Source of the DNA: Mustelus asterias
Lineage: Eukaryota
DNA: 64,000 nt
Direction of reading: 5' to 3'
Assembly: GCF_964213995.1 (NCBI RefSeq)
Contig: NW_027590347.1
Coordinates: 186,001-250,000 of the forward strand
The position numbers and the translations under genes are program-made. Of the stretch, positions 752-40,149 are shown piece by piece. The notes under the pieces were generated by a model. It worked only from the letters and a program-made list of their open reading frames with translations, had not been told where the DNA came from and ran no database searches. Within the stretch, counting starts at the first letter, position 1, and each line of letters begins with the position of its first letter.

Positions 752-790
752 GGTTTTTGTACGGGCTGACTGTGTCTCTGTAGCAGTGTG
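752..790 (-). promoter_or_regulatory. 23-bp-spacer recombination signal sequence of V segment 1
   Basis: Minus strand: heptamer CACACTG (784-790), 23-nt spacer CTACAGAGACACAGTCAGCCCGT, consensus nonamer ACAAAAACC (752-760), directly after the YHCALS codons. Confidence 0.95.
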
Positions 791-1226
791 GGGCTCAGCG
801 CACAGTGATACACGGCAGAGTCAGAGACATGGACCCCGGTGATTGTTAAAGGAACTGTTCTCTTGTCTTTGTCTAATTCAGCCGAAAACCGGTCAGGGAA
901 ATCTGGAGACTTTTCCCCCTGTCCCTTGCCGTATTTCTTCAGTAAATATCTCGGAGCGTCCCCGGGATGTTGAATGTACCAGAAGAGAGTCTCGCCAGTG
1001 TATTTTGTTGTGTAGTTGCAGTTCAATATTACCGTCTGCCCTTCCTGGACCGTGAATTCGGGCAGGTCCTGGGAAACTGAATCTTGGCCACTGGTTCCTG
1101 TAACAACATATAGAATGTGTGAGAAATCTGAGTGAATATAACCCATGAAACACACACTGAGGATTTGAGCTCAGACTCACCGGGCAGCATGACCATTATT
1201 ATCAGTAAAGCACACAGGGAACACAT
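791..1226 (-). CDS. TRAV/TRDV: T-cell receptor alpha/delta variable gene segment 1; leader exon 1181-1226, V exon 791-1097
   Basis: Leader MCSLCALLIIMVMLP ends at a GTGAGT donor (1180); acceptor ttgttacag at 1098-1099; phase-1 splice. V domain QDSVSQ...VILNCNY...LFWYIQHPGDAPRYLL...RFSAELDKDKRTVPLTITGVHVSDSAVYHCALS has Cys23, Trp41 and Cys104, followed by a 23-RSS. Confidence 0.93.
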
Positions 1227-1400: not shown

Positions 1401-3900
1401 ACTGTTAGTTGACGACGAAGTGCGGCTGGCTTTCTCCAATCAAATTGTAGCCCAGGCTGAGTCCGTCTTTCTCACCCTCTTGCTCTCTGTCACATTCTCA
1501 GTCATTCTGTCTCTTTCTCGGTTTAACTCTCTTTCCTTCCAACCGGAGATCAGCTCTTTATATGACACCAGAGCCTGTCTTCATATTGCAATAGACCATG
1601 TTTCCCTTGCCATCAGTATAGTATTAATTACGATATCTATCGGTGCGTCTGTCAGAATTCAATCATTTTAGTCAGAGTAAATTAACGATAATAGTGAAAG
1701 AGTATATTTAATCTTATTAACGTTTCTAAGTACAAACCCAGAGGCCTCAGATGTCTGCGGTTTTATTTGATCGGATTAACTCGCTCATGTTAAATGTTAT
1801 TTATTTTTATACCAGTTTGTGACGACTTCTCAAGAACCTTAATCTTATTACCACGCGCTTGACCTGTTTACGCGGAACTTTTCGTTCTGACAGGTAGATT
1901 TCCTCGGGTTGCGATTGGAAATAGAACTGTACACGGATTGAACAACTGAGGATTTAGATGGAGATCCCGTGAGGGAAGCAAACGCTGCAACACAGGAATT
2001 TTCAGGCTAAGTAATAAAGATAAAGGGATGGAAAGACAATGGGAAACAATCTCATGTCTTTCGTCTGACTCCAGAGAATTATAACACAATTTACTCAGCA
2101 TTTCATCAATTTCAACATGGGGAACACGACAAGCCCCCTTTGTTCTACAGAACTTCCAATTTCATGCCATTCGTTGAATACTTCGTTGTCAAATTATTCC
2201 TTCTAAATTTAATCACCACTCTTTTCAGGGTTAAATTCCATCTGCAACTTACCGGCCCATTTGAACATTCCATCCATATCTTCTTGTCGTCAAAGAGACT
2301 CAACCTCAGTGTTAACCACTCGCCAAATGAAAGTGGTCATCTTTCAATCTGTATTCTCTGACAACGCTGGCAGTTTTAGACTTCGCAGTCAACTGATGGG
2401 ACGAGTGGAATGTGCAGGAAACGTTTTGATTGCAATTTATTGAAGGACTGAGTGTGGATTTTTCTCTCTCCCTTTGGCTCTCCACAATCTGGCCGATGAA
2501 AAACAGAATGAGAGAGAGGCGGAAAAGATAGGAGTATGAGGACGATGTTGATGTGGGGCGGTTTATTAAGAGAGGCAAAGGTTCTGTAGTTCTCTACAGA
2601 GTTGGAGTGGGGAGAGGTGACTGATAGAAGTTGGAGCTCAATTGCTGATGCTGAATGTACATACAGCACTAGTCCAGGCGTGAGGAGGTTTAGTGGTTGT
2701 GCAGGGAGAACCTGGCCAACCATCTCCAAAAGGAAACCCACCGATTCCTGTTAATCATCTGGAAAATCTGAACTGGACCGCCTCGATTGCAATTATATTT
2801 CCCTTAAAATAACGAGACGCAGGAGTATACACATTATTTCTAATATGGGTTCTCCATCCACAGTGCTGCAACCGTCAAAGCCTCGGGTCACTTGTTAGAG
2901 TGTGGTATTAAAAGGAGCTACTAGCTCCATTTGTCGCTCTTGTGTCCGGCGCCACACGATCAGCTGAGGTTTGCAAACTGAAAGGGTACTTATACTTATA
3001 CATTATATCGGGTCTATTTCAGATTAAATAATATTTTATTGCCAGTTTTACAAAAACTCTGGACTGATACTTTTTTTTTTCAATCTACCAATCAAAAGTA
3101 ATCGAAGGCTTTGAATATTACCAGAATAAGTTAGTTGAAAGTCCAAGACATTTCGAGAATGCAACAGTTCAAGATCGAGGGAATAGCTTCCACACAGACT
3201 GCAAGGAACATGGCATAAGGAAGAAGATGAAAGTTTGAATGAATGATACAGGACACATCCTCACTCATCTCCAAAGATACCAGAAATTGTACATGTGTTT
3301 CCGAAAGTAGTTTGGACACGTGATTTACCCCTCTCTCGGAGTAATCTCCATAAAATATTATCTGTGAACAACTTGAGGGTAAATGTCTGTCTTATTGATT
3401 TTAAACTGTTTCTTGCTGAATAGCAGCAGTGCGATGTTTCCAATCATCCTGCTTCTGGCACCTCTCTTGCATGAACAGAAGAATCTCGAATCTGCACTAA
3501 TTTCATGATTACAATTTCATTCAAATTCTGAAATTGTAGACTGACATTATGTGATAGAAATATTCGTAACTCCTTTAATTCACTTCAGTTCAGTACATAG
3601 TGTTAATCAATATTCATCTTTTTTCACCAAACTGCTGGACAAATCTGTTTGCCTTCAGTCAGTTCCTATACTATGAGTGCAAAAGACTTTCAATAAACAT
3701 ATATTTTGCAATAAAAGCCGAAGTCGTCATGTTTGTTCATTGATCGTGATTAATGTCATTCCGCACATCATTTAATTGTTTCACCAGGGGACTTTCCTCA
3801 CTCGGTAAATATAGAATGTTTTCATTGTGCGCATCAGTGTTAAAAGTGAGAGTGGTCTCCAGTACAACCAGTGATCATTGAATCTCTGAGTCACTAAACC

Positions 3901-5569
3901 ATGTTCTGGATTATTCCACTTGAGCTTCGTGTTGCTTGGGTACTTCACGATATCCAAAGGATTTACTACCCACTCCTCGCTGCAGTTGGTGTAGCTGGTG
4001 AGTTAAATTTCACTCTGTTGATTGCACTTGTCCGTGAGACCCAATCAATAATTTTATAATGTGCAAACTTCATGTTGCATATGTGCTAATGCAATTGGAA
4101 AATTTCTCTATCTTCCCAGCAGACATTTTCCCTACTCTTGCCTGGTGGTTGCTCTCTATTTCCCACTCTCTGCCCTCCCCACTACCAACCCCCTCTCCTC
4201 ACTCCCACCACACCTTCACCGGCCACTTCCACTATTCCTGCCTTAATATCTACAGGGTCCTGCCTCAGTAAAATAAAATATATAATTTCCAGTTTTGTGA
4301 TTTACAGCCAATTCCAAATCAACTGATGCAATATCTTCAGATGCACAGTCTGCAGCACAGCCACAGCAGAGTGACCCAGACCAGGAACATTCCGTCCAAA
4401 CCCATTGGTACCATTGTGTCTCCCAAATACAAATAAAGAGAAGGCAGGGAATTGGAGATCTGCTCTGTTGGTAAATTTAGTTTCTTGATACCTCAGTGCG
4501 ATGCTTTCCTACTGTGAACCCAGTCTCAGCAGAACAGGTGCATCCATGTTTTTCTGAGGCTGGACTCTGTAAAACAAAATCCTGCAGCTGTTCCCCAGAA
4601 ACCTGCCAGATTACTGCTCCTGTTCTCAGTCTGAAATATGAGTTAATTGTCTCTCACTTCCCTGCAGTGAACTTATTGACGATTCTTATCCTGTCTCGAG
4701 GGAGGTGTGGACTTTCCAAATGTGTCTCACGTTACCTAATTTCCATGTCAGCGGCGGATCTACTCGTCGTCATCATCGACCTCGTATTGAGGCAAATTCC
4801 CATCAGTTTCAGAGATCAATTTGTCTTCATGTATCATGTTAAAGTGTGCAATATCCATGCCGTCCTGCTTTACGCAGTCACTGACTGTTCTGTCTGGTTC
4901 ACTGTCACTTTTACCTTTGATCGATTCGTGGCCATTACTTGTCAGAAGCTGAAAATAAAATACTGCACTGAGGAAACGGCAACTGTGGTTCTAGGAACAG
5001 TGAGTGTGGTATTCACTGTAAAAAACACTTTCTGGTACTTTATGTGTGAGAATAGCTATTGGCTTTCCAATACTCCCTATTTCTGTTCTGTAGATTTTGA
5101 TGTCGCCTCCTCACCAGCATGGACAGCAGCTGAAAGTCTCCACTATATTTTAACCCCGACTATTCCTTTTGTGTTGGTTGTGCTGTTCAACGTTTTAACC
5201 GTTAAATACATTGTGGTGTTGAGTAAAGTCCGCAGGAGACTTCGGACCCACAAGAATGGGGAAAGTCCAAGTGACCCAGTGATAGAGAAAAGAAGAAAAT
5301 CTATCATCATACTGTTTGCAATATCGGGAAATTTTCTCCTGTTATGGTCAGTGTTCCTCTTCTATTGTTTTTATGACCGACTGTACATGTTTAAATTATT
5401 TCTGTCGCGTTTACCACATTTTCTTCAGGAATTAGGATTTATGCTCCAACTCCTGAGTTGCTGCACCAACACATGCATCTATGCAGTGACACAGACACAG
5501 TTCAGAGAGGATCTGAAAAATGTGGTGATGTTTCCAGTAACTGGAATTTTGAAATTCATTAAACAGTAA
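3901..5569 (+). CDS. Class A orphan GPCR, GPR139/GPR142-like, two coding exons (3901-3997 and 4668-5569), 332 aa
   Basis: Exon 1: aaccATG with an in-frame stop just upstream, MFWIIPLELRVAWVLHDIQRIYYPLLAAVGVA, then a GTGAGT donor at 3998. Acceptor cttccctgcag at 4666-4667, phase 1, joining VNLLTILILSRGRCGLSKCVSRYLISMSAADLL. Seven hydrophobic helices, TFDRFVAITC (DRY-equivalent), TM7 CCTNTCIYAVT, stop at 5567-5569, AATAAA at 5790. The ORF-track N-terminus (4496-4667) is intron. Confidence 0.9.
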
Positions 5570-6766
5570 TAAGCTATTCTATCACCACAACGTATTTATC
5601 TGATGTTTTGCTACAGAAACTCATCGCAATCAGAAACACACTGATGTCGATTTTGCTTTATTCATCCCGATAAATCCATGAACAACAATTGTAGAAATTC
5701 AAAAGGAAACGACTTCAGATCCAAAGCTGTCTGGATTTGAATCAGTTAAAATCAGCGATTTAACATGTGCTGGACACATTGAGTTCCAGAATAAAATATT
5801 CGCCTGTCAAATTCGGGAGGAAGTTACTGACCTTAGCATTTTACATCAACAGTCATCCCACAACGAAAATATCTGCCAGCACCACCTCTACCAGCCTCAC
5901 GGTACCGGCCCCACCACCCGATCTCTCACATCACACGTCCCCCTGCGCATCCCCCCCCCCCCCCCCGCCCACCCCCACCCCCAACCCCGTTCGGGAAATC
6001 TTCACTATTGTATCTAGTGATGGTGAATTGAAGAAGTGGATGTGCGATTAATGAAGGCTGGTATTGGGGAAGAGGAAGTGAAGGGAGGGGTGGTGGGCGG
6101 TTGCGAGTCATTTGTCGTGTGCTGAGACGACAATGTCCATAAAATATTAGCCCGAAACATCCATTCAGTTGCAATCAGAGTCATGTTGCAGCTGCGACGA
6201 CATTGAATAAAATCCAGTGCCAGCATTCGACAGCGCACTTGCTTCAATTCACTGAGAACTCAAATAACTGCACAGCAAATCAGTCCAATGCGCCCCTGAA
6301 TTTTGCAGTGTGTTATAGGTCAGAGTGACTTAAGGCCTCAAATGTGCCGGAGTGTAATCTTCAAATAAGCAAACACATTTTAATATAGATGGAACAGAAT
6401 ACAGGCAGGGTTGTGAAGGGTCTATGGAACACATGAGAACTCAATAATGGAAAATTCAGAGAAAATTAGATTTGTGTCCAATTATAATGAAATAATACTT
6501 AATAAAATCTGGATTTAAAAAGTAGCCAGCTCTTCCAAAAAATTAAAGTGAATGTAAAGAAATAATTAGCAGTTAAGAGACACATTTATTCGCGAGTGGA
6601 TGAATATAAATCAAGTATTAAATTCCCTATCCTTGGGCCAGATTTCCTTGTGGATATTATTGAGAGGGATGCGGATGCTGTTGCTTTCTGGGGAAGCAAG
6701 GTATTAAATTTATATTGAAAATCACCTCAAAACTGTTTATTTATCTTGAGTCTACAAATGATACAA

Positions 6767-6784
6767 TGCTACCATCTGCTGACA
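6767..6784 (-). promoter_or_regulatory. CTCF-like motif
   Basis: Minus strand TGTCAGCAGATGGTAGCA, a weaker match to the CCASYAGRKGGCRS core. Confidence 0.4.
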
Positions 6785-6852
6785 ACCCACAACTGCTGCA
6801 GACGCTGGTCTTTGTGAGTCTCAGAAAAGTTCAGTAACTCGAGACTGCATTT

Positions 6853-7170
6853 TTGATTTGATTTGATTTATCATTGTCACATGTATTAACATACAGTGAA
6901 AAGTGTTGTTTCTTGCACACTATCCGAATAAACATATTGTACTTAAAGAAGGAAAGGGGAAAGTACAGCATGTATGGCTACGGTCATAGGTAGGATGGAG
7001 AGAAAGATCAACTTTGGTCCATTCAACACTCTGATGGCAACATGGAAGAAGCTGTTCTTAAGTCTGTTAGTACGTGGCCTCAGGCTTTTGTATCTTTTTC
7101 CCAACAGAAGGTGGAAGAGAGAATGTCGGGATGCATGCGGCCCTTAATTATGCTGGCTGCTTTTCCGCGA
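6853..7170 (-). mobile_element. Rex1/Babar LINE 3' fragment
   Basis: (GATTT)n tail and 3' UTR shared with the longer copies at 13430 and 31858, which encode a Rex1-type ORF end. Confidence 0.75.
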
Positions 7171-7174
7171 CTTG

Positions 7175-7750
7175 AGTCAGTGGGGTTATGCTGCAACTGT
7201 ACAGGACCTTGGTGAGACCACATTTGGAATATTGTGTGCAGTTCTGGTCACCTCACTATAAGAAGGATGTGGAAGCGCTGGAAAGAGTGCAGAGGAGATT
7301 TACCAGGATGCTGCCTGGTTTGGAGGGTAGGTCTTATGAGGAAAGGTTGAGGGAGCTAGGGCTATTCTCTCTGGAGCGGAGGAGGCTGAGGGGAGACTTA
7401 ATAGAGGTTTATAAAATGATGAAGGGGATAGATAGAGTGAACGTTCAAAGACTATTTCCTCGGGTGGATGGAGCTATTACAAGGGGCATAACTATGGGGT
7501 TCATGATGGGAGATATAGGAAGGATGTCAGAGGTAGGTTCTTTCCACAGAGAGTGGTTGGGGTGTGGAATGGACTGCCTGCAGTGATAGTGGAGTCAGAC
7601 ACTTTAGGAACATTTAAGCGGTTATTGGATAGGCACATGGAGCACACCAGGATGATAGGGAGTGGTATAGCTTTATCTTGGTTTCAGATAAAGCTCGGCA
7701 CAACATCGTGGGCCGAAGGGCCTGTTCTGTGCTGTACTGTTCTATGTTCT
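7175..7750 (+). mobile_element. CR1 LINE 3' fragment
   Basis: [39 protein letters not shown] is the CR1 ORF2 C-terminus; it ends in (TGTTCTA)n. Confidence 0.92.
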
Positions 7751-7770
7751 AGAGAAGAAAGGAAAATTAT

Positions 7771-8390
7771 TTGCTGCCTCTAGTCTTATATCACAGAGTG
7801 AACTCAGATCAGAGGCAGCTTCAATTATTAGGAAACTGGGAGGCGTTTCTCAGTGCTGCGATTGGCTCATCTCCCTGAGCTGACGTCAGCTGCGAATCAT
7901 AAAATCCCTACAGTGCAGAAGGAGGCCATTCGCCCCATCGAGTCTGTACCGGTCACAATCCCACCCAGGCCCCACTCCCGCAACTCCGTGCATTTACCCT
8001 GCGTATCCCCTGAGACTCGGGTCAATTTAGCATGGCCAATCAACCCAACCTGCACATCTTTGGACTGTGGGAGGAATCAGCAGCAGCCGAAGGGGACCCA
8101 CGTAGACACGGGGAGAACATGCAAACTTCATACAGAAAGTGATCCGAAGCCGGAATTGAACCCGGGTCCCTGACACTGTGAGACAGCAGCGCTGACCATT
8201 GTGGCATCATGCCGCCCCGTAACCAGTGAAGCAATCACTGTTAGTTAATGATTTAATATAGCTGGCACTTTCCAATCACATTCCTTCCCTGGCCGTAAAC
8301 GTATTTCTAAGTTCCTTGTTCTGTCTCTGCTCTCTCCCACATAACCAGTTATTGTGTCTCATTAACTGGTGAACTCGCTTTCCTCAGAAC
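7771..8390 (-). promoter_or_regulatory. Orphan paralog of the V1 promoter/upstream region, interrupted by a SINE
   Basis: 7771-7897 aligns by eye with 1270-1397 (tatatcacagagt...ctcagatcagaggca...ggcgtttctcagtgctgcgattgg). It has a perfect CRE TGACGTCA at 7881-7888. Homology resumes after the SINE at about 8232 (caatcactgttagtt). Confidence 0.75.
7897..8219 (-). mobile_element. HE1-type tRNA-derived SINE
   Basis: Reverse complement of the GGCGGCA...TGGTCAGCGCTG...GGTTCAATTCC head with the CR1-like tail. Confidence 0.9.
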
Positions 8391-8467
8391 TCAGTCCATC
8401 AATCTTTCTGAAGGCAGATCCTTTTTTTCTAATTCAGGTGAAAAGTGAAACTAATTTAATCATTTAT

Positions 8468-9703: not shown

Positions 9704-9742
9704 ACTTTTTGTCTGAGGCCCGCGGGAGCCTCACTCACTGTG
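9704..9742 (-). promoter_or_regulatory. 23-RSS of V segment 2
   Basis: Minus strand: CACAGTG (9736-9742), 23-nt spacer AGTGAGGCTCCCGCGGGCCTCAG, nonamer ACAAAAAGT (9704-9712). Confidence 0.95.
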
Positions 9743-10213
9743 GGTCTCAGTGCACAGTAATACACGGCGCTGTCTGTCATCTTCAAATCTTTCATGGACA
9801 AGTGAAAAGTGCTTTGTGTCTGGTTGAGATTCCCGCTGAAGTGTCCAAAGCCGGGAGCCGTGTCGGTAAACCCATAACTATTGGCTCTGAGCAGATACTG
9901 AGGAGCTCGGTGTGGATACTGGCGATACCAGAACAGGTCATGTTGTACAGCTGAACTCGGCACAGAGTAACTGCAGGGTATTGCTGAATCTTCACCCTCT
10001 GCTGCTTCAACTCCTGGTTCTGACTGGAACACTGAGTCTCCATTGCTCATCTCTGAAAATAAACAGCGGACGCACAGCGGGTTAGGAGACAGAGGAAGAC
10101 GATAGTCACACAGCGCTGGGAAAGGGAAATTGCACAAGGTTTGCAATATACTTTACAATCTGTGACCAGAATCACTGACCTGGGATCAGTGCAATAACTA
10201 GAATCAGGAACAT
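9743..10213 (-). CDS. TRAV/TRDV: T-cell receptor alpha/delta variable gene segment 2; leader exon 10180-10213, V exon 9743-10052
   Basis: Leader MFLILVIALIP ends at a GTCAGT donor; acceptor ttattttcag at 10053-10054. V domain GDSVFQSEPGVEAAEGEDSAIPCSY...LFWYRQYPHRAPQYLL...FHLSMKDLKMTDSAVYYCALR, followed by a 23-RSS. TATA-like GATATAAAA near 10349-10357. Confidence 0.93.
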
Positions 10214-11470: not shown

Positions 11471-12479
11471 GATGTGAGGTAAATGGGAGATCAGTGAATT
11501 CTCAGATGACTGAAGGATCTTGTTGCAGGATTTTGCTGCTGTATTTTTTCTTGTTCTCATGATTCTTATTATAATATACTTAAATTCAGGTGGAACCATG
11601 CACGGAACTAATACGAACTTCAGTCTGAATCCTCATCAATTAATTGCTTTATCTGTTTTGAGTGTTCCAGGCCTTTCTGTTAAACTATATTCGCGTTACA
11701 AAATTTGAAACCACAGCAATACTGCTAAGATTCGATCTCTTATTAAAGTTCTCTCCACACATCGAAAGGATGTAAATTTGACTCCAACCTCACATTTATC
11801 TGACAGATTGTCGGATTTCAGTGCACCTGCTTCAATTTTAAACTTTCCTCAGAGTTGTCATGATGATATTTTGGCTAACATATCAGCTGTCCCCTAATGG
11901 GGCTTGGGGAATTTATTGAAATAGGAGACTGGGAGAAATTGCATGTTCTAAATTCTGCACGTTGCTGGAAAACGGTTGAGGGAGAGAGGGGCTTTGAGAC
12001 ACAGAGAGAGGAGACAGACATTAGCCGCCAAAATATTGAGAGTGCAGGATGGACACCGAGGTGAACAGAGACCCAGAGGCGCAGAGAAAGACAGGCAGGA
12101 GCAGGTAATGTTATTGGGCTACAACCAATGTTGTTCGGTGGCCAATTCTTGACAACACTGAGAAACAAGCCAATCCTGTCATTGGGTAACGCCTCTTAGT
12201 CTCCCAATAAATGAGGACTGCCCATGATATAAAATTACTTCTTCACATCAGAGTACAAGAGTTGACATAATTTTACAATTCTGCTGATTTTGTGGAATTC
12301 TTCAGCTGGAAGCATGTTCTCCCAATGTTCTTCACTACTTTGTCTAGGAAACAATGACTGAACACAGGGGGTGAATGTGAGAAGCTGAAGTTTCCACTTG
12401 AAGACATTCCCAGTGTCTCTGAGCAGCTGAACTGGGGAAGCCTTTGGGCAGAGACTGTGCTGCTGCTATTGCCCTTCCT

Positions 12480-12810
12480 GGCCACCAGGCGTCGCTGTAA
12501 CGCTCCCGGGGGGGCTGCTCCTCCCAGTGTCACTTCTTGCCCACTCCGGCCCGGCCCATGCTCGTTGGCGGGACAACAGGGGGGGGTCAGTCGAGGGGGA
12601 AGGGCTGCCTGTGCGCATGTGCGGGACGGGAATGCTCCCAGAGGTCAGCGCGCGGGACGCCGCCGCATTGATGCCGTCTCCCCTGGCAACGCAAGATGGT
12701 CGCCGCCGCCGTCTCCCTTGGCAACGGAATATGGCCGCTGGCCGTCTCCCTTGGCAACGCAAGATGGCCGCCGGCGGTGGGTGTCATTGCGGCGCACGCG
12801 CAGTGAGGTC
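12480..12810. promoter_or_regulatory. CpG-island promoter with NRF1-like sites and three tandem RFX X-box plus YY1 units (copy A)
   Basis: CpG-dense. GTCTCCC(C/T)TGGCAAC at 12676, 12711 and 12744, each followed by CAAGATGG or AATATGG(C/T)CGC. tgcgcatgtgc and gcgcacgcgca flank the array. Confidence 0.7.
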
Positions 12811-12911
12811 TGTCTGCAGCCATTGTCCAGATTGCCCCCAGTGGATGGGGTTGGGATTGTGCAGCAGATGGAGCAACAATCCCAGTTTCAATAGGGGGAC
12901 AGAAGCTGCAA

Positions 12912-12930
12912 TGCTGCCCCCTGTTGGTCA
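12912..12930 (-). promoter_or_regulatory. CTCF motif (copy A)
   Basis: Minus strand TGACCAACAGGGGGCAGCA. Confidence 0.65.
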
Positions 12931-13009
12931 CTTCTCCCAGTCTCAGCATTGCAGAGTGTTTAAACAAGAGTGCATTGTCACAGCAGCACCTTGACCTTCA
13001 GTTTCAGTT

Positions 13010-13210
13010 TATTTATTAGTGTCAGAAGTAGGTTTACATTAACACTACAATGAAGTTACTGTGAGAATCCCCTAGTCGCCCACACTCCGGCGCCTGTTCG
13101 GGTTACACTGAGGGAGAATTTAGCACGGCCAATGCACCCTAACCGGCACATCTTTCAGACTGTGGGAGGAAACCGGAGCACCCGGAGGAAACCCACGCAG
13201 ACACGGGGAG
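13010..13210 (-). mobile_element. HE1-related SINE with alternative tail, head truncated
   Basis: Central domain plus a ...gtaacttcattg...ctaataaataaac tail on the minus strand. Confidence 0.8.
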
Positions 13211-13429
13211 GGGACAGCCCGGGGGAAAGCTCCATTCCAACTGTCCCTGGAGTGTCAGATTAACCTGGGTCACTCACGCACCCCCCCCGGCTAAGACTCA
13301 CCTCCCTCAGACAGTGAGACCCTCCTGTATCACTCACCTTACTGTAGTCAGATACCCTCAGACTCAGCACTGGGTCCTGGGCGTGTTCTTTAAATGCTGC
13401 GACCTATCGTGGAGGAAAGAATTGGGAGG

Positions 13430-14070
13430 ATTTTGATTTGATTTGATTTATTACTGTCGCATGTATTGGGATACAGTGAAAAGTATTGTTTCTTGTATGC
13501 TGTACAGACAAAACATACCGTTCATAGAGTACATCGGGGAGAAGTAAAAGAGAGGGTGCAGAATGTAGTGTTGCAGTCATAGGGAGGGTGTAGAGAAAGA
13601 TAAATCTAATATGTAGCAGGTCCATTCACAAGTCTGAGGGCAGCCGGGAAGTTCTTGAGTCGGTTGGTACGTGATCTCAGACTTTGTATCTTTTTCCTGA
13701 CGGAAGAAGGTGGAAGAGAGAATGTGTGCATGAGGTCCTTAATTATGCTGGCTGCTTTTCTAAGGCCGCGGGAAGTGTAGACAGAGTCAATGAATGCGAG
13801 GCTAGTCTGCGTGATGGACGGGGCGACATTCACGACCTTTTGTAATTTCTTGCAGTCTTGGACAGAGCAGAAACCAGACCAAGCCGTGATACAGAAAGGA
13901 TGCTTTCTATGGTGCATCTGTAGAAGTTGGTGAGAGTCGTAGCTGACATTCCAAATTTCCTCAGCCTCCTGAGAAAGTAGACGTGTTGGTGGGCTTTCTC
14001 AATTATAGTGTCGGCATGGGGGGACCAGGACAGGTTGTTGGTGATCTGGACACCTAGAAACTTGAAGTTG
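13430..14070 (-). mobile_element. Rex1/Babar LINE 3' fragment
   Basis: NFKFLGVQITNNLSWSPHADTIIEKAHQHVYFLRRLRKFGMSATTLTNFYRCTIESILS is the Rex1-type ORF end; (AAATC)n tail. Confidence 0.85.
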
Positions 14071-14094
14071 AGACCCAAATGACAAGTTGTCATA

Positions 14095-14425
14095 GTGTCA
14101 TAGATGTTTACTGCAGGGAAACAGGCCCTTTGGCCCAACTTGTCATTTTGACCTTTTTCTTTTAACCCCTAAGCGAGTCCCAATTCCCCACATTTGGCCC
14201 ATATCCCTCTACATCTATCTTACCCATGTAACTGTCTAAATGCTTTTTAAAAGATAAAATTGTGTCCGTCTCTACTACTACCTTTGGCAGCTTGTTCCAG
14301 ACGCTCATCACTCTCTGTGTGAAAAGATTGCCCCTCTGGACACTTTTGTATGTCCCCCCTCTCACCTTAAACCCATGCCCTCGAGTTTTAGACTCCCCTA
14401 CCTTTGGGAAAAGATATTGACTATC
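14095..14425 (-). mobile_element. CR1 3' fragment
   Basis: FTQRVMSVWNKLPKVVVETDTILSFKKHLD. Confidence 0.85.
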
Positions 14426-15480
14426 TATTGTGTGTCAACCATAGAATAGCCACAGAATGAAGGAGGCCATTCAGCCCATTCAGCTGGTGTCGACTCTCTG
14501 CTAGAGCAATCGAGCCAGTCCCACTGCTCCACCTTGTCCCTGGAGCCCTGCAAATCTTTTCCCATCAGCTTCCCATCCCATTTCCTCTGGAAAGACAGCG
14601 AGGAGCAGAGAGGAAAGAGGTACTTGGGGAATGGAAAGTTTCATCTGATGTTCTTGTTGGCAGATGCTCTGTGGTGGATAAAGCTGGCAGCCTCCTCCAG
14701 AAAGCAGCACAGAGTGAATGGAAGGGGCAGAATGTGAGTGAGATGAGACACGAGAGAGAGAGAGAGAGAGAGAGGTGAAAGCTTTCTGTTTGTCAGCAAA
14801 AAGCACAATGGTGGCCCTGTGTCCTTCAGGGAGCGGCCCAGGCCTCGCTCAAAGCCTGCCCTGTCCTCACACTCACTGGGAGACGGCCATTTCTAACATG
14901 TTGTCCATGCTTCTGAGCTGACACTGAGACAAACACAACAACAGCAGCCACTATCCGGACAAGTCCTCACGGAGAATGAAATGTCCAAAGCCACTTCAAA
15001 GGAAGATTGCGCGGCAGGATTTGTCCCCGAGCTGCGGAGGGAGAGATTTGGATGGATGACCAGAAGCTGGGTCAGTGAGGTTGTGTTTTAGCAATGGAGG
15101 TCCAGAGAACAGAAAAGGCCCTTCGGCCCATTGCATCTGTGCCGGTCAAAGACAAACCACCCAACTTGGCTCACGGCCTGGTAAGCCTTGGCATTGCAAA
15201 TGCATAGCTAAGCACTTCTTAAACGTTCTGAGGGTCTCTGCCTCCACCACCCTTTCAGGCAGAGAGTTCCAGACTCCCACCACCCTCTGGGTGAAAAAGG
15301 TTTTCCTCACATCCCCTGTAAACCTCCTGCCCCTTACCCTAAATCTATACCCCCTGGTCATTGATCCCACCACCAAGGGGAAAGCTTTCTTCCCGTCTAC
15401 TCTATCGATGTCCCTCATAATCTTATCCATCTCCATCATGTTCCCCCTCAGCCTCCTCTGCTCCACGGAAAACAACCCCA

Positions 15481-15615
15481 GGGTGGAATCTTATCACTGT
15501 TCAGGCCGGCAGGATTTTCCCATCCCACTGCAGTGAAAGGAGATTTGGCAAGTCACCAGATTCTCCGACCTCGCTGAGCGGGAGTGTGGCGTCAACAGGT
15601 GGTAAGATCACACCC
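15481..15615. mobile_element. Short MITE-like non-autonomous DNA transposon
   Basis: Imperfect terminal inverted repeats GGGTGGAATCTTATCACTGTT and AACAGGTGGTAAGATCACACCC; possible 3-bp target duplication cca/tca; paralog at about 33903-34037. Confidence 0.6.
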
Positions 15616-15646
15616 TCAGTCTATAAAATCTCTCTTCAGTTCGAGT

Positions 15647-15940
15647 GGCGGCACGGTAGCACAGTGGTTAGCACTGCTGCCTCACAGCGCCAGGGACCCG
15701 GGTTCAATTCCGGCCTCGGGTTACTGTCTGTGTGGAGTTTGCACATTCTCCCCATGTCTGCGTGGGTTTCCCCCGGGTGCATTGTCCATGCAAAATTGCC
15801 CTGAGGGTCCCACGATGTATAGGTTAGGGGGATTAGCGGGAACATACGTGGGGTTACGGGGTAAGCCTGGGTAAGAGTCCGTGCAGATTTGATGGGTCGA
15901 ATGGCCTCATTCTGGACTGTAGGGATTCTATGATTCTATG
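15647..15940 (+). mobile_element. HE1-type SINE
   Basis: tRNA-like head and CR1-like tail ending gattctatgattctatga. Confidence 0.9.
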
Positions 15941-16053
15941 AACTAAAACTCTCCAGGCCAGGCAACATCCTGGTGAATCTCCTCTGCACCTTTTCCAGTG
16001 CTATCACATCCCTCCTATCCTGTGCATTCCACAACTGCACAATGTTTCGATGA

Positions 16054-16350
16054 GGGGCAGCACAGTGGTTAACACTGCTGCCTCACAGCGCCAGGGACCC
16101 GGGTTTGATTCCTGGCTTGGGTCACTGTCAGTGTGGAGTTTGTACATTCTCCCCGTGTCTGCGTGGGTTTCCACCGGGTGCTGCGGTTTCCTCCCACAGT
16201 TCGAAAGACGCGCTGGTTAGGTGTATCAGCCATGCTAAATTCTCCCCAAGTTGCCCAAACAGGCGCCAGAGCATGGCGACTACGGATTTTCCACAGTAAC
16301 TTCATTGCAGTGTTAATGTAACCCTACTTGTGACACTAATAAATAAACTT
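16054..16350 (+). mobile_element. HE1-related SINE with alternative tail
   Basis: Same head and core; tail cagtaacttcattgcagtgttaatgta...ctaataaataaac. Confidence 0.88.
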
Positions 16351-17574
16351 TTAAACCTGATACTCGATTCCCCCATGTTGGCCTTGTTCTGTGATCATTA
16401 ATGCGGATGTTTAGATTATTCAATAGTTCTTTGAGGACAGCAGACACAGGGGAAAAAAAACATGTGACTCTGTACACAACAGATATATTTCAAGGGGATA
16501 TTGCAGCCAGCTGTATCTGAGTGGCAGTAATCTTCCCTCAGAATCAGACAGATTGTGGGTTCAGCTCAGAGCCTCAAATACTCGGCCCTTAGCATCGATC
16601 AGAGCCTCCGCGCACAGCATGATGGGAGAGCGGACAAAGGAAAGTGGTGTTGAATTTGTGAGCCTTGTTTTGTGGAAAGCTTTAGTGTTTGGTCAGAATG
16701 TTAATTTTTGAGTGGACCTACCATATATTAAGCTGATCTTTCTCTATACCCTATCGGTAACTGCAACACTGTATTCTGCACCCTCTCCTCCTGACAGTTT
16801 TGTTTTAAACTCTTTATCAATGTCCTTCCAGGTTTAGTGTGAAGGTTTGTGTTCCACACTGAGCCCCTCTCAGTCTCCACACGGAGCTTGTGTGTGTTGC
16901 TGATGCTCCTGTCATTTTGGATGGATACTGTGTGAAGCTGCATTCTCTCCCAGTGAGTTTCTGATCTACTTCACTCTCTCTGCGGCTGGAGCAGTGTCCA
17001 GCAGGCAGCAGAGGATGGCAGTGTATCACAGTCAGCACAATATAGACAAACAGCCTTTAGCAAGAGAGGCTTTGACCCTTTTTCAAACCAAATCCCCAAT
17101 TTGATGTTTCCAGCTGCGCTGTTTACAATGCTGCTGAATATTGTATGTCTTTGGTAAACTGGGATGTGTAGCATTCAGTCACATTAAGTGGTCAATAAAT
17201 ACGTCCACACTGTGTATATCTTTCTGTGTGTGTGTGTCAGCGTGCATGTGTGTCAATGTATTTAAATCTCAAAGGAAAATAGGAGCAGGTGTAGGCCATT
17301 TGGCCCATCGATCCTGCGCCAGCATTCAAACAGATCATGGTGCACGTACGCACACAAAACACGCACACACCAACACACACAAAACACACACACACCAACA
17401 CACACAAAGCACGCACACACACAAAGCACGCACACACACAAAGCACGCACACACACAAAGCACGCACACACAAACACACATAAAACACGCGCAAAAAGCA
17501 CACACACAAATCACACACACAAACACAATAAACACACACACACAAACACACAGAAACACACACATCAAACACAC

Positions 17575-17885
17575 AGTTAGCACTGCTGCCTCACAGTGCC
17601 AGGGACTCGGGTTCGGTTCCCGGCTTGGGTCACTGTCTGTGCGGAGTTTGCACGTTCTCCCCGTGTCTGCGTGGGTTTCCTCCGGGTGCTCCGGTTTCCT
17701 CCCACAGTCTGAAAGACGTTCTGGTTAGGGTGCATTGGCCGTGCTAAATTGTCCCTCCGCGTCAGGGAGACTAGCTCGGGTAAATGCATGGGGTAATGGG
17801 GATAGGGCCTGGGTGGGATTGTGGTCGGTGCAGACTCAATGGGCCAAATGGCCTCCTTCTGCACTGCAGGAGTCTAGGATTCTAC
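17575..17885 (+). mobile_element. HE1-type SINE flanked by (CA)n-rich sequence
   Basis: Core and CR1-like tail; paralog at 37560-37875. Confidence 0.85.
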
Positions 17886-18485
17886 GAAAACACACAGAAA
17901 CAGATATTCTCACCCAGTAACACTCAGACGCACACAGTAATAAACACACACGGAAACATGTCCACACACACACACACACACACACAGATTCCTATTTTAT
18001 TTCACACAATCGATTTGTGTCTTGAACATGCTGAATGATTGGGCTTCCACATCCCCCTGGAATAGAACATTCCAAAGATTCACCACCCTCTGAGTGAAGA
18101 AATTCCTCCTCATCTCAGTCTTCAATGGTCTGCCCCTGATTCTGAGATTGTGTCCCCTGGTTCTAGTCTCACCAGCCAGGGGAAACATCCAATCTACATC
18201 CACCCTGTCACAGCCTGTAAGAATTTTAAGTCTGTTTCAATGGGATCGCCTCTCATTCTTCAAGGGTTCAAGGCCGACTTCCGGACTTGATGGCCATGGA
18301 AGGTGTGCTCATAACGGGGCCAAACAGCTGGATTACCAAACAGTAAATCCTGCCGGGATCATGGGTCCGTAAACTCTGCCCGAAACCTCTCTCAGTTATT
18401 ACAATCTGGGCCTTGTATCAGTAATCTCTGCCTGAAACCTCTCTCAGTTATTACAATCTGGGCCTGGTATCAGTAATCTCTGCCC

Positions 18486-20938
18486 GGATTTTAACTTGAC
18501 TAATATTGACTGGAATTGTTATAGCTCTAGCTCGTTAGAGGGGTCAGTTTTTGTTCAAAGCGTGCAGGAAGGTTTTTTGACTCAGTATGTAGACAGGCCA
18601 ACTAGAGGTGAGGCTATATTGGATCTGGTGCTGGGAAATGAGCCAGACCAGGTGCTAGACTTGGAAGTTGGTGTGCATTTTGGTGATAGTGACCACAATT
18701 CGGTTACGTTCACCTTAGTGATGGAAAGGGATAGGCATGAACCTCGGGCCAGTGGTTTTAGCTGGGGGAAGGGTAATTATGAGGCTATTAGGAGAGAATT
18801 AGGAAACATAGGTTGGACTAGGAGATTACAGGGACTGGGAACGTCCGACATGTGGAGTTTTTTCAAGGAGCAGCTACTGCGAGTCTGTGATAGGTATGTC
18901 CCTGTCAGGCAAGGAGGAATTGGTAGGGCTAGGGAACCGTGGTGCACCAAAAAAGTTTCTTTGTTGGTTAAAAAGAAAAAGGAGGCTTATGTTCGGATGA
19001 GACGTGAGCACTCGGGTAGTGCACTAGAAAGCTTTAGATTGGCTAAGAGGGAGTTGAAGAGCAAGCTTAGAAGGGCTAAAAGGGGACATGAGAAGACTTT
19101 GGCGGATAGGGTTAAAGAGAATCCTAAGGCGTTCTATAGGTATGTCAAGAACAGAAGGTTGGTTAGGGCAAGTTTAGGGCCAGTTATAGATGGCAGAGGG
19201 AAGTTATGTGTGGAACCGGAGGAGATTGGTGAAGCATTGAACCAATATTTCTCTTCGGTGTTCACGCAAGGGGACATGAATATAGCTGAGGAGGACACTG
19301 GGTTGCAGGGGAGTAGAATAGACAGTATTACAGTTGATAAGGAGGATGTGCAGGATATTCTGGAGGGTCTGAAAATAGATAAATCCCCTGGTCCGGATGG
19401 GATTTATCCAAGGATTCTCTGGGAGGCAAGAGAAGTGATTGCAGAGCCTCTGGCTCTGATCTTCAGGTCGTCGTTGGCCTCTGGTATAGTACCAGAAGAT
19501 TGGAGGTTAGCGAATGTTGTCCCATTGTTTAAGAAGGGGAACAGAGACTTCCCCGGGAATTATAGACCGGTGAGTCTCACTTCTGTTGTCGGCAAGATGT
19601 TGGAAAAAATTATAAGGGATAGGATTTATAGTTATTTGGAGAGTAATGAATTGATAGGTGATAGTCAGCATGGTTTTGTGGCAGGTAGGTCGTGCCTTAC
19701 TAACCTTATTGAGTTTTTTGAGAAAGTGACCAAGGAGGTGGATGGGGGCAAGGCAGTGGACGTGGTATATATGGATTTTAGTAAGGCGTTTGATAAGGTT
19801 CACCATGGTAGGCTTCTACAGAAAATGCAGATGTATGGGATTGGGGGTGATCTAGGAAATTGGATCAGGAATTGGCTAGCGGATAGGAAACAGAGGGTGG
19901 TGGTTGATAGTAAATATTCATCATGGAGTGCGGTTACAAGTGGTGTACCTCAGGGATCTGTTTTGGGGCCACTGCTGTTTGTAATATTTATTAATGATCT
20001 GGATGAGGGTATAGTTGGGTGGATTAGCAAATTTGCTGATGACACCAAAGTCGGTGGTGTGGTAGACAGTGAGGAAGGGTGTCGTAGTTTGCAGGAAGAC
20101 TTAGACAGGTTGCAAAGTTGGGCCGAGAGGTGGCGGATGGAGTTTAATGCGGAGAAGTGTGAGGTAATTCACTTTGGTAGGAATAACAGATGTGTTGAGT
20201 ATAGGGCTAACGGGAGGACTTTGAATAGTGTGGAGGAGCAGAGGGATCTAGGTGTATGTGTGCATAGATCCCTGAAAGTTGGGAATCAAGTAGATAAGGT
20301 TGTTAAGAAGGCATATGGTGTCTTGGCGTTTATTGGTAGGGGGATTGAATTTAGGAGTCGTAGCGTTATGTTGCAACTGTACACAACTCTGGTGCGGCCG
20401 CACTTGGAGTACTGTGTGCAGTTCTGGTCCCCACATTACAGGAAGGATGTGGAGGCTTTGGAGAGGGTGCAGAGGAGGTTTTACCAGGATGTTGCCTGGT
20501 ATGGAGGGGAAATCCTATGAGGAGAGGCTGAGGGATTTGGGATTGTTTTCGCTGGAAAGGCGGCGGCTAAGAGGGGATCTTATTGAAACATATAAGATGA
20601 TTAGAGGTTTAGATAGGGTGGATAGTGATAGCCTTTTTCCTCTGATGGAGAAATCCAGCACGAGGGGGCATGGCTTTAAATTGAGGGGGGGTAGTTATAG
20701 AACCGATGTCAGGGGTAGGTTCTTTACCCAGAGGGTGGTGAGGGATTGGAATGCCCTGCCAGCATCAGTTGTAAATGCGCCTAGTTTGGGGGCGTTTAAG
20801 AGATCCGTAGATAGGTTCATGGACGAAAAGAAATTGGTTTAGGTTGGAGGGTCACAGTTTTTTTTTTAACTGGTCGGTGCAACATCGTGGGCCGAAGGGC
20901 CTGTTCTGCGCTGTAATGTTCTATGTTCTATGTTCTAT
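18486..20938 (+). mobile_element. Young 5'-truncated CR1 LINE (reverse transcriptase ORF2, one frameshift near 20480)
   Basis: ORF 18496..20520 has PGNYRPVSLTS, DFSKAFDKV, GVPQGSVLGPLLF and KFADDTK; it continues in 20300..20842; (CTATGTT)n tail. Confidence 0.97.
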
Positions 20939-36660: not shown

Positions 36661-38527
36661 CTGGAAACAAATTAACACTTTAATCACCCAAAAAGCTGAA
36701 TGTCCATTCAAACACCTCCCTCCCCATATCCTTGTAAATGCAAAGATAACTCCCATTTCCCCAAAGCAGGAAGATGTGAAATGGAAACATCTTCAGCTTT
36801 TTACACACTGCACTTTTCCACGGACCAAAATGTTTCAAAACATTTGCTGAAGTTTTGTTTTAAACTCTTTATCAATGTCCTTCCAGGTTTAGTGTGAAGG
36901 TTTGTGTTCCACACTGAGCCCCTCTCAGTCTCCACACGGAGCTTGTGTGTGTTGCTGATGCTCCTGTCATTTTGGATGGATACTGTGTGAAGCTGCATTC
37001 TCTCCCAGTGAGTTTCTGATGTACTTCACTCTCTCTGCGGCTGGAGCAATGTCCAGCAGGCAGCAGAGGATGGCAGTGTATCACTGTCAGCACAATATAG
37101 ACAAACAGCCTTTAGCAAGAGAGGCTTTGACCCTTTTTCAAACCAAATCCCCAATTTGATGTTTCCAGCTGCGCTGTTTACAATGCTGCTGAATATTGTG
37201 TGTCTTTGGTAAACTGGGATGTGTAGCATTCAGTCACATTAAGTGGTCAATAAATACGTCCACACTGTGTATATCTTTCTGTGTGTGTGTGTCAGCGTGC
37301 ATGTGTGTCAATGTATTTAAATCTCAAAGGAAAATAGGAGCAGGTGTAGGCCATTTGGCCCATCGATCCAGCGCCAGCATTCAAACAGATCATGGTGCAC
37401 GTACGCACACAAAACACGCACACACCAACACACACAAAACACGCACACACCAACACACACAAAACACGCACACACACAAAACACACACACACACACACAC
37501 AAACACACATAAAACACGCACAATAAACACACACAGAAACACACACACACACATCAAACACACAGTTAGCACTGCTGCCTCACAGTGCCAGGGACTCGGG
37601 TTCGGTTCCCACCTTGGGTCACTGTCTGTGTGGAGTTTGCACGTTCTCCCCATGTCTGCGTGGGTATCCTCCGGGTGCTCCGGTTTCCTCCCACAGTCTG
37701 AAAGACGTTCTGGTTAGGGTGCATTGGCCGTGCTAAATTGTCCCTCCGCGTCAGGGAGACTAGCTTGGGTAAATGCATGGGGTAATGGGGATAGGGCCTG
37801 GGTGGGATTGTGGTCGGTGCAGACTCAATGGGCCAAATGGCCTCCTTCTGCACTGTAGGAGTCCAGGATTCTATGAAAACACACAGAAACAGATATTCTC
37901 ACCCAGTAACACTCACACGCACACAGTAATAAACACACACGGAAACATGTCCACGCACACACACAAACACGCATGCACACACAAACANNNNNNNNNNNNN
38001 NNNNNNNNNNNNNNNNNNNNNNNNNNNNNNNNNNNNNNNNNNNNNNNNNNNNNNNNNNNNNNNNNNNNNNNNNNNNNNNNNNNNNNNNNNNNNNNNNNNN
38101 NNNNNNNNNNNNNNNNNNNNNNNNNNNNNNNNNNNNNNNNNNNNNNNNNNNNNNNNNNNNNNNNNNNNACACAATCGATTTGCGTCTTGAACATGCTGAA
38201 TGATTGGGCTTCCACATCCCCCTGGAATAGAAAATTCCAAAGATTCACCACCCTCTGAGTGAAGAAATTTCTCCTCATCTCAGTCTTCAATGGTCTGCCC
38301 CTGATTCTGAGATTGTGTCCCCTGGTTCTAGTCTCACCAGCCAGGGGAAACATCCAATCTACATCCACCCTGTCACACCCTGTAAGAATTTTAAGTCTGT
38401 TTCAATGGGATCGCCTCTCATTTTTCAAGGGTTCAAGGCCGACTTCCGGACTTGATGGCCATGGAAGGTGTGCTCATAACGGGGCCAAACAGCTGGATTA
38501 TCAAACAGTAAATCCTGCCGGGATCAT

Positions 38528-40149
38528 GTATCAGTAAATTCTGCCCGAAACCTCTCTCAGTTATTACAATCTGGGCCTTGTATCAGTAAACTCTGCCCGA
38601 AACCTCTCTCAGTTATTACAATCTGGGCCTTGTATCCGTAAACTCTGCCCGAAACCTCTCTCAGTTATTACAATCTGGGCCTTGTATCAGTGAACTCTGC
38701 CCGAAACCTCTCTCAGTTATTACAATCTGGGCCTTGTATCAGTAAACTCTGCCCGAAACCTCTCTCAGTTATTACAATCTGGGCCTTGTATCAGTAAACT
38801 CTGCCCGAAACCTCTCTCAGTTATTACAATCTGGGCCTTGTATCAGTAAACTCTGCCCGAAACCTCTCTCAGTTATTACAATCTGGGCCTTGTATCAGTA
38901 ATCTCTGCCCGAAACCTCTCTGTTATTACAATCTGGGCCTTGTATCAGTAAACTCTGCCCTAAACCTCTCTCAGTTATTACAATCTGGGCCTTGTATCAG
39001 TAATCTCTGCCCTAAACCTCTCTCAGTTATTACAATCTGGGCCTTGTATCAGTAATCTCTGCCCTAAACCTCTCTCAGATATTACAATCTGGGACTTGTA
39101 TCAGTAATCTCTGCCCTAAACCTCTCTCAGATATTACAATCTGGGACTTGTATCAGTAATCTCTGCCCTAAAACTCTCTCAGTTATTACAATCTGGGACT
39201 TGTATCAGTAATCTCTGCCCTAAACCTCTCTCAGATATTACAATCTGGGCCTGGTATCAGTAATCTCTGCCATAAACCTCTCTCAGTTATTACAATCTGG
39301 GCTTTGTATCAATAATCTCTGCCCGAAACCTCTCTCGGTTATTACAATATGGGCCTTGTATCAGTAATCTCTGCCCTAAACCTCTCTCAGTTATTACAAT
39401 CTGGGCCTGGTATCAGTAATCTCTGCCCTAAACATCTCTCAGTTATTACAATCTGGGCCTTGTATCAGTAATCTCTGCCCTAAACATCTCTCAGTTATTA
39501 CAATCTGGGACTTGAATCAGTAATCTCTGACCTAAACCTCTCTCAGTCATTACAATCTGGGACTTGTATCAGTAATCTCTGCCCTAAACCTCCCTCAGAT
39601 ATTACAATCTGGGACTTGTATCAGTAATCTCTGCCCTAAACCTCTCTCAGTTATTACAATCTGGGCCTTGTATCAGTAAACTCTGCCCTATACCTCTTTA
39701 GTTATTACAATCTTGGCCTTGTATCAGTAAACTCTGCCCTATACCTCTTTAGTTATTACAATCTGGGCTTTGTATCAGTAATCTCTGCCCGAAACCTCTC
39801 TCGGTTATTACAATCTGGGCCTTGTATCAGTATATACTGCCCTAAACCTCTCTCAGTTATTACAATCTGGGCCTGGTATCAGTAATCTCTGCCCGAAACC
39901 TCTCTCAGTTATTACAATCTGGGCCTTGTATCAGTAATCTCTGCCCTAAACCTCTCTGTTATTACAATCTGGGCCTGGTATCAGTAATCTCTGCCCTAAA
40001 CCTCTCTGTTATTACAATCTGGGTCCTGTATCAGTAATCTCTGCCCTAAACCTCTCTGTTATTACAATCTGGGCCTGGTATCAGTAATCTCTGCCCTAAA
40101 CCTCTCTCAGTTATTACAATCTGGGTCTTGTATCAGTAATCTCTGCCCT
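38528..40149 (+). repeat. 52-bp tandem satellite (copy B), uninterrupted, about 31 units
   Basis: Period of 52 measured between 38551 and 38603. Confidence 0.95.

What the first reader, a model, noticed from the sequence alone, without database searches (positions are those of the whole stretch)
3901..5569. Intact GPR139-like receptor gene embedded, antisense, between two functional TCR V segments
Seen: a clean two-exon 332-aa GPCR with canonical splice sites and no disruptions, lying between V1 and the RSS of V2. Known: mammalian TRA/TRD V regions contain interspersed olfactory receptors, and shark annotations carry many GPR139-like genes. Inference: if V2 joins D/J by deletion, this gene is excised on the signal-joint circle, so its copy number in a T cell would depend on V usage. 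It may also share the V array's thymic chromatin opening. This suggests a V-interleaved GPCR family duplicating along with the V genes.
Basis: partly seen in the sequence, partly recalled or inferred. Interest (0 to 1): 0.78.

Follow-up and report, generated by a model that had tools for sequence, protein, structure and literature searches.

The report
Receptor hitchhiking in shark T-cell locus
An intact cell-surface receptor gene from a large shark gene family was likely copied once, on a 5-kb piece of DNA, into the array of T-cell receptor alpha V segments and then multiplied with them to about ten copies; it is most likely a passenger, but most copies sit head-to-head with one V type, so T cells using that V might switch it on.

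Summary
Observation confirmed: an intact two-exon, 332-aa class A GPCR (3901-3997, 4668-5569, +) lies between two intact-looking TRAV segments on the - strand. It is a recent capture, not a unique insert. A 5.13-kb piece (2042-7171: upstream DNA, intron, gene) matches four V-free copies at 95-96% and joins V1's upstream DNA at a 2-base microhomology; four V1 sites lack it. Ten full-length copies beside V segments form one side of a tree branch (93/98). Of 12 descendants, 9 are intact. V1-GPCR-V2 holds in only 3 of 10 copies; head-to-head with V1 (2.7 kb) in 8 of 10. The contig has no J but shares 95-99% blocks with a contig holding 129 J and C-alpha. Its V segments lie on both strands (18-/16+), so deletion at V2 is not established. 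A second, older receptor lineage is broken in all 5 array-type copies read. No RNA was available. Best reading: a passenger, like olfactory-receptor and trypsinogen genes in mammalian TCR loci. Bold reading: V1-J joining keeps the gene beside the active promoter, giving clone-linked expression. The scan noted this neighbourhood before in other shark and skate genomes (unchecked); I found no paper on it.

The parts
752..790 (-). V1 23-bp-spacer RSS
   Evidence: 1 mismatch in the heptamer, 0 in the nonamer
791..1097 (-). V1 exon (TRAV-type, open, YHC motif)
   Evidence: 12 copies at 96-100% in the genome
1181..1226 (-). V1 leader exon; its ATG is 2,675 bases from the GPCR ATG, head-to-head
2042..2043 (.). 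left capture junction: V1 upstream DNA joined to the receptor piece at a 2-base microhomology
2042..7171 (+). captured 5.13-kb piece (1.86 kb upstream, both exons, intron, 3' flank), 95-96% identical to four V-free copies
3901..3997 (+). GPCR exon 1
4668..5569 (+). GPCR exon 2 (rest of TM1 to stop)
7174..7751 (+). repeat fragment (LINE-like by my reading) right of the captured piece
   Evidence: multi-copy in the window; junction
7765..8400 (-). upstream remnant of a V1-like gene without its V; marks the inferred deletion that put V2 next to the GPCR
9704..9742 (-). V2 23-bp-spacer RSS
9743..10052 (-). V2 exon (TRAV-type, open)
10180..10213 (-). V2 leader exon
   Evidence: read

Best explanation
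This intact GPR139-like receptor gene is most likely a passenger that was copied once, with its intron and upstream DNA, from a V-free site into the TCR-alpha V array and then multiplied by the array's own segmental duplications. Shown: gene structure, both junctions, V-free copies, empty V1 sites, and 12 descendants in different V contexts. Inferred: direction (V-free to array), a DNA-level non-homologous event (intron kept, 2-base microhomology, no RSS-like heptamer at the ends), and linkage to the J-C-alpha contig. It would be transcribed, if at all, from its own promoter in the family's usual tissue. V-J joining would delete or flip some copies as a bystander effect with little dosage consequence. 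The copies are predicted to decay over time, as a second receptor lineage in the array has.
For: Junction spanned at 10 places, V1-side only at 4, receptor-side only at 4, among the 40 scored hits. The 10 array copies form one side of a branch, 93/98, 91% of bootstrap trees, with V-free copies outside. Five different V arrangements surround the 10 copies. Decay: one nonsense copy (C1506), one cut inside exon 2 (C387), one that lost the gene (C741). Among the 10 copies, 15 non-synonymous (one is the stop) versus 2 synonymous distinct changes, P=0.39 against neutral; the non-synonymous rate per site is 0.020 versus 0.026 in non-coding DNA, P=0.40, whereas pN/pS to the older C71 copy is 0.32. A second lineage (about 45% identity) is broken in 5 of 5 array-type copies read. 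Zinc-finger ORFs also lie between V and J on C546. Precedent: trypsinogen genes in mouse Tcrb are not expressed in T-lineage cells (PMC10772921, PMC4291525 passages); olfactory receptors are interspersed with TRAV (PMC2275272 passage).
Against: The frame is better kept than neutrality predicts: 0 coding indels against 2.7-4.4 expected from non-coding rates (P 0.07-0.013). Changes fall at family-variable sites (mean conservation 0.67 vs 0.81, P=0.025, simple resampling). So some constraint may remain, though gene conversion could mimic this. Of the 12 V1 copies at 96% or more, 9 carry the junction, so the linked form is the majority. Tree support is below the starred threshold and the root is a midpoint. 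Unchecked scan notes place such receptors among V segments in other sharks and a skate, which could mean a selected link rather than chance.
Confidence: 0.66

Rival explanations
1. Clone-linked expression. The receptor lies 5' of V1's promoter, so V1-J joining by deletion or by inversion would leave it 2.7 kb from the active TCR-alpha promoter and bring it near the alpha enhancer. V1-using T cells would then transcribe it, tying a receptor variant to a V choice.
For: Head-to-head with V1 in 8 of 10 full-length copies, 7 of them intact. ATG-to-ATG gap 2,675 bases. Upstream DNA conserved at 75-83% with distant paralogues. Mouse Prss2 is switched on in thymocytes when active Tcrb chromatin reaches it (PMC4291525 passage). 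No coding indels.
Against: The same paper shows such a neighbour is completely silent in wild-type alleles. The alpha enhancer is described as strongly inhibited in mature mouse alpha-beta T cells (PMC7696796 figure legend). 3 of 12 descendants are broken, the older lineage decayed, and replacement changes run at a near-neutral rate.
Confidence: 0.12
2. The array acts as an amplifier for a receptor that is useful outside lymphocytes, such as a chemosensory or peptide receptor. Copies are kept and diversify at ligand-facing sites, and the TCR setting only supplies the duplication rate.
For: With the V-free copies included, 18 of 29 amino-acid changes lie on the extracellular side (35% expected, P=0.003), and changed sites are family-variable (P=0.0001). 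13 of 14 near-identical full-length copies are intact.
Against: For array copies alone the extracellular excess is not significant (7 of 14, P=0.18), and dN/dS does not differ from 1. Loops tolerate change under relaxed selection too. The topology bounds were set by hand from a moderate model (pLDDT 64.7).
Confidence: 0.14
3. One reading: V2 joining by deletion removes the gene on a circle, so receptor dosage in a T cell tracks V usage and matters to the cell.
For: The gene lies on V2's RSS side. 7 of 10 V segments on the J contig face the J cluster for deletion.
Against: Orientation to J is unknown. V2 follows the gene in only 4 of 10 copies. At least 14 near-identical copies and 131 family hits buffer any loss.
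Confidence: 0.04
4. The contig is an orphon array cut off from J-C, or the copies are partly assembly duplicates, so no rearrangement touches this gene.
For: C315 has no J and is not joined to C546. The genome has C-less V-J orphon clusters.
Against: 34 of 41 V hits on C315 are open and near full length, nearly all with good RSS. 73% of the first 64 kb of C546 has matches of 95% or more in C315. Copies differ in their flanking V order.
Confidence: 0.04

Closest known systems
Olfactory-receptor genes interspersed with TRAV1 at the 5' end of mammalian TRA/TRD (PMC2275272, passages read)
   Same: GPCR genes among TRAV segments of the same locus
   Different: There they are at the distal edge with one or two V segments. 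Here a non-olfactory class A family sits inside V clusters, was recently captured and co-amplified to about ten copies.
Trypsinogen (Prss) genes in mouse Tcrb (PMC4291525 and PMC10772921, passages)
   Same: Multi-copy non-immune genes inside a rearranging TCR locus; silent in T cells unless a chromatin barrier is removed
   Different: They lie in blocks beside the V cluster; here each copy lies 2.7 kb from a V promoter.
RefSeq/UniRef 'probable G-protein coupled receptor 139' models of Heptranchias, Heterodontus, Pristiophorus, Mustelus and Scyliorhinus
   Same: Mostly 60-71% identity over the whole of exon 2; same size range; clustered, multi-copy
   Different: Automatic names only; their position relative to TCR V segments could not be read here.
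Human GPR139 (PDB 7VUG, 9M42)
   Same: Best sequence match among solved structures (E 1.5e-6 single, 7.8e-14 profile)
   Different: About 22% identity; several pocket residues differ; the shark family has at least 131 hits in this genome.
Elasmobranch antigen receptor complex, AgRC (PMC12227049; parts 1-2 of 8 read, word search of the main text and 2 supplements)
   Same: TCR alpha/delta-type V exons scattered outside the core translocon
   Different: No mention of GPR or G-protein receptors was found in that paper.

Membership tests
Class A (rhodopsin-like) GPCR | 7tm_1 domain above the curated cut-off and a seven-helix bundle | tested here: met
   Pfam 57.3 bits vs cut-off 30.5; helical bundle model matching class A structures, best E 2.8e-4
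Class A (rhodopsin-like) GPCR | Signature motifs (TM1 N, TM2 D, DRY, CWxP, NPxxY; motifs recalled) | tested here: inconclusive
   GxxxN, MxxxD and DRF are present; the TM6 and TM7 prolines are absent, as in the family profile
GPR139 orthologue | Single-copy gene with high identity to human GPR139 (expectation recalled) | tested here: not met
   About 22% identity; at least 131 family hits in this genome
GPR139 orthologue | Trp/Phe pocket residues E108, F109, H187, W241, R244, N271 (numbering recalled) | tested here: not met
   By the profile alignment, the TM5 His and TM6 Trp are kept; the other four differ
GPR139 orthologue | Groups with vertebrate GPR139 rather than beside it in a tree; conserved synteny | not tested
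   No vertebrate GPR139 or GPR142 sequence was held under an id; the tree has shark sequences only
Elasmobranch-expanded 'probable GPR139' family | High identity to the annotated shark models; nests among them | tested here: met
   1,656 hits, the best 120 nearly all so named; nests with Heterodontus, Pristiophorus and Heptranchias members, 100/99; Atlas clusters of the same name, 0.97
Functional TRAV segment (V1, V2) | Split leader, open V exon with conserved Cys/Trp/Cys, 23-bp RSS | tested here: met
Functional TRAV segment (V1, V2) | Linked to TRAJ and TRAC | tested here: inconclusive
   Not on one contig; shared 95-99% blocks and V families (76-97% aa) with C546, which holds 129 J, a C-alpha-like exon and a TCR-alpha-type TM exon (C-alpha named from recalled motifs)
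Functional TRAV segment (V1, V2) | Found rearranged and transcribed | not testable with these tools
   No RNA holder listed
Silent passenger gene of a TCR locus (OR/trypsinogen type) | Non-rearranging gene with its own promoter among V segments | tested here: met
   (promoter inferred from conserved upstream DNA)
Silent passenger gene of a TCR locus (OR/trypsinogen type) | Not expressed in T cells | not testable with these tools
   No RNA holder listed

The most novel reading that the evidence does not exclude
Sharks carry V-linked receptor cassettes. A GPCR sits head-to-head with one TRAV subfamily, so V1-J joining by either route places a particular receptor variant beside the active TCR-alpha promoter. 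T-cell clones would then express a chemosensory-type receptor chosen by their V(D)J outcome.
Probability: 0.1. Interest if true: 0.85.

Novelty: new variant of a known kind. Interest (0 to 1): 0.45.

Why it matters
As a passenger, it is an unusually clean record of how a gene enters a rearranging locus: V-free source copies, empty sites, the junction, amplification and early decay all lie in one genome. It also gives sharks a counterpart of the mammalian olfactory-receptor neighbours, built from another GPCR family that I found no paper on. The head-to-head link with V1 makes an old question directly testable: does an activated antigen-receptor promoter switch on a bystander gene clone by clone? 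Each copy's private changes would serve as the label.

Tried and rejected
Expression: no RNA holder listed. The four coded runs were contigs; none of the listed joints or loose ends showed a V-J junction (132 loose ends not shown). Neither result is evidence either way.

Depth: long pieces of the cassette had depth 67-107 (X1) and 77-117 (X2), against 9.4-10.5 and 11.9-13.7 behind C-alpha (likeness settings 93 vs 95). The tool says depth is no copy number and X1/X2 may be the assembled sample, so this is only a hint that the copies are not haplotig doubles.

Cross-species test: V searches gave 2 longer and 18 near-length proteins, none on the contigs that carry the closest GPCRs, so synteny in other sharks stays open. 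The genome search has no relatives for this genome, and the representative-protein search never ran.

Retroposition is rejected because the intron and upstream DNA are kept. RAG-mediated transposition is unsupported: no heptamer-like site within the 90 bases scanned at either end. C-delta was not recognised between V and J on C546 by a crude ORF scan. The first J regex was one base short and gave zeros (fixed). A unique-stretch computation failed. The fold search did not single out GPR139 (ranks 34 and 49 of 50 shown).

Literature: searches found no paper on a GPR139-like expansion in sharks. Searches found no assembled shark TRA map naming such genes; one search was swamped by unrelated words. 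PMC8455134 (passages) notes a relative paucity of GPCRs in cartilaginous fishes. PMC5931798 (passages) had no assembled locus. PMC11979771 has no GPR139 mention in its main text; its supplement, which may hold tissue expression of this family, could not be read.

Full report
Observation. The gene is as described. Exon 1 (3901-3997) and exon 2 (4668-5569) with GT-AG sites give 332 aa without a stop, scoring above the Pfam 7tm_1 cut-off. V1 (exon 1097-791) and V2 (exon 10052-9743) are open V-set exons on the - strand with split leaders and 23-bp RSS. No other V lies in the window.

What the receptor is. Exon 2 finds 1,656 proteins; the best 120 are nearly all shark models named 'probable G-protein coupled receptor 139', mostly at 60-71%. 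Human GPR139 is the best solved sequence match but only about 22% identical, and four of six recalled pocket residues differ. In this genome 131 of 5,908 candidates were scored and all matched, a lower bound. It is a member of an expanded elasmobranch family, not the GPR139 orthologue. In a 28-row shark tree, it and 10 relatives from this genome form one group (100/100) beside Heterodontus, Pristiophorus and Heptranchias members.

What the locus is. The window is G000:C315:186001-250000. I read the whole contig: 41 V hits in three clusters, of which 34 are open and near full length, 18 on - and 16 on +, and no J. A J pattern (86 matches, control 6) led to C546, read whole. It holds 10 V (7+, 3-), 129 J on + and a C-alpha-like exon with a TCR-alpha-type TM exon (named from recalled motifs). 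Only two such C exons were found among 42 candidates: C546 and C71:18.42 Mb at 73%. 73% of the first 64 kb of C546 has matches of at least 95% over at least 1 kb in C315, on both strands, including the V-free part of this window. So C315 most likely belongs to that V array, but it is not physically joined and its orientation to J is unknown.

How the gene got there. Fourteen hits are 96-100% identical and one is 90%. I read 10 kb around these and around 6 of the 116 more distant hits. Ten of the 14 have a V within that span. Four (C147, C91 twice, C173) and the 90% copy do not; wider reads of three of them found one broken V 24 kb away. The V-free copies match the window only from 2042 to 7171. 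A V1 copy without the receptor matches up to 2042, and the two sides share two bases at the joint. A DNA search across the joint found 10 places that span it, 4 with only the V1 side and 4 with only the receptor side at 95% or more, among 40 scored hits. A tree of 15 copies puts the 10 array copies on one side of a branch (93/98; 91% of bootstrap trees; midpoint root, with the 90% copy outermost). I infer one DNA-level capture into V1's upstream region, followed by amplification. Flanks then reshuffled into five arrangements: V1 upstream in 8 of 10, V2 downstream in 4 of 10, both in 3 of 10. The window's order appears derived: from 7765 on it matches the DNA upstream of a V1-like gene that lies about 11 kb and five V segments beyond the other C315 copy.

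Selection. Of 12 descendants, 9 are intact, one has a stop at codon 286, one is cut in exon 2 and one lost the gene. The 10 full-length copies show 15 non-synonymous and 2 synonymous distinct changes (P=0.39 vs neutral), while pN/pS to the older copy is 0.32. Against pure neutrality: there are no coding indels where 2.7-4.4 are expected, and changes prefer family-variable sites (P=0.025). These tests are crude and gene conversion was not screened. I read this as young copies under weak or relaxed constraint. A second lineage (about 45% identity) has a broken copy at C315:180.8 kb. I read 11 of its copies: broken in 5 of 5 array-type copies (C315, C391, C2654, C386, C815; C2654 assigned by 99% identity), broken in 2 more, and with an open exon in 4, three of which lie 3.5-11 kb from damaged V segments in the DNA read and one about 7 kb from two stop-bearing V segments. 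A third lineage (71%) borders a C-less V-J cluster on C106 and C119. Receptor clusters and TRA pieces have therefore exchanged DNA several times.

Mechanism. Deletional V2 joining would excise the gene, but orientation is unknown and the loss is buffered by many copies. The more stable geometry is head-to-head with V1 (2,675 bases). Whether V1 joins by deletion or inversion, DNA 5' of its promoter stays beside the assembled gene (inference from standard V(D)J geometry; PMC10772921 passage). In mouse Tcrb, trypsinogen neighbours are silent in T cells and are switched on only when a barrier is deleted. That precedent favours silence but shows activation is possible. No RNA was available.

Comparison and verdict. 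It works like the olfactory-receptor and trypsinogen passengers of mammalian TCR loci but differs in family, position inside V clusters and recent co-amplification. I found no paper on it (word searches). Four earlier scan notes report such receptors among TCR V segments in other shark and skate genomes; I could not test them and do not count them as support. Passenger 0.66; amplifier for a non-lymphoid receptor 0.14; clone-linked expression 0.12; dosage by excision 0.04; orphon or assembly effect 0.04. New variant of a known kind; interest 0.45.

Noticed in passing
G000:C315 whole contig; C546:32109-63388: TRA-type V segments with good RSS lie on both strands (18-/16+ and 7+/3-), so about half would join by inversion, whereas mouse Tcra/d rearranges almost only by deletion (PMC10772921 passage).
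   Followed up: partly
G000:C546:138887-236947 and C71:18374550-18431907: Two TRA J-C loci: 129 J with one C, and 33 J with a 73% C paralogue. The second has no V in the 164 kb upstream, which is a zinc-finger cluster.
   Followed up: partly
G000:C106:666847-749453; similar J hits on C71 (3 places), C90, C110, C111, C115, C123, C138, C154, C173, C181, C401, C850, C973, C3311: About 17 small J clusters without a C-alpha hit, many with V segments 40-60 kb away; apparently amplified orphon pieces of the TRA locus. Only C106 was read.
   Followed up: partly
G000:C315:180779-181645 (L109); C815:127655-127960; C386:250411-250716: A broken receptor of a second lineage in the V array. In two places a fragment of it abuts V1's upstream DNA within about 10 bases of the same breakpoint, suggesting a rearrangement hot spot.
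   Followed up: partly
window 7765-8400: Upstream region of a V1-like gene with no V left, interrupted by a short repeat at 7894-8217.
   Followed up: yes
G000:C546:113560-113700 and 120750-120900: Two similar elements with RSS-like sites around a short G-rich core, possibly D-delta-like; no C-delta was recognised nearby.
   Followed up: no
window 12340-16223 / 30767-34644 and 16791-18486 / 36847-38651: Internal duplications at 92-98% and 52-bp minisatellite arrays in the V-free 54 kb of the window.
   Followed up: no
window 4668-5569: The receptor lacks the usual TM6 and TM7 prolines and has no N-glycosylation sequon; the prolines are also missing from the family profile.
   Followed up: partly
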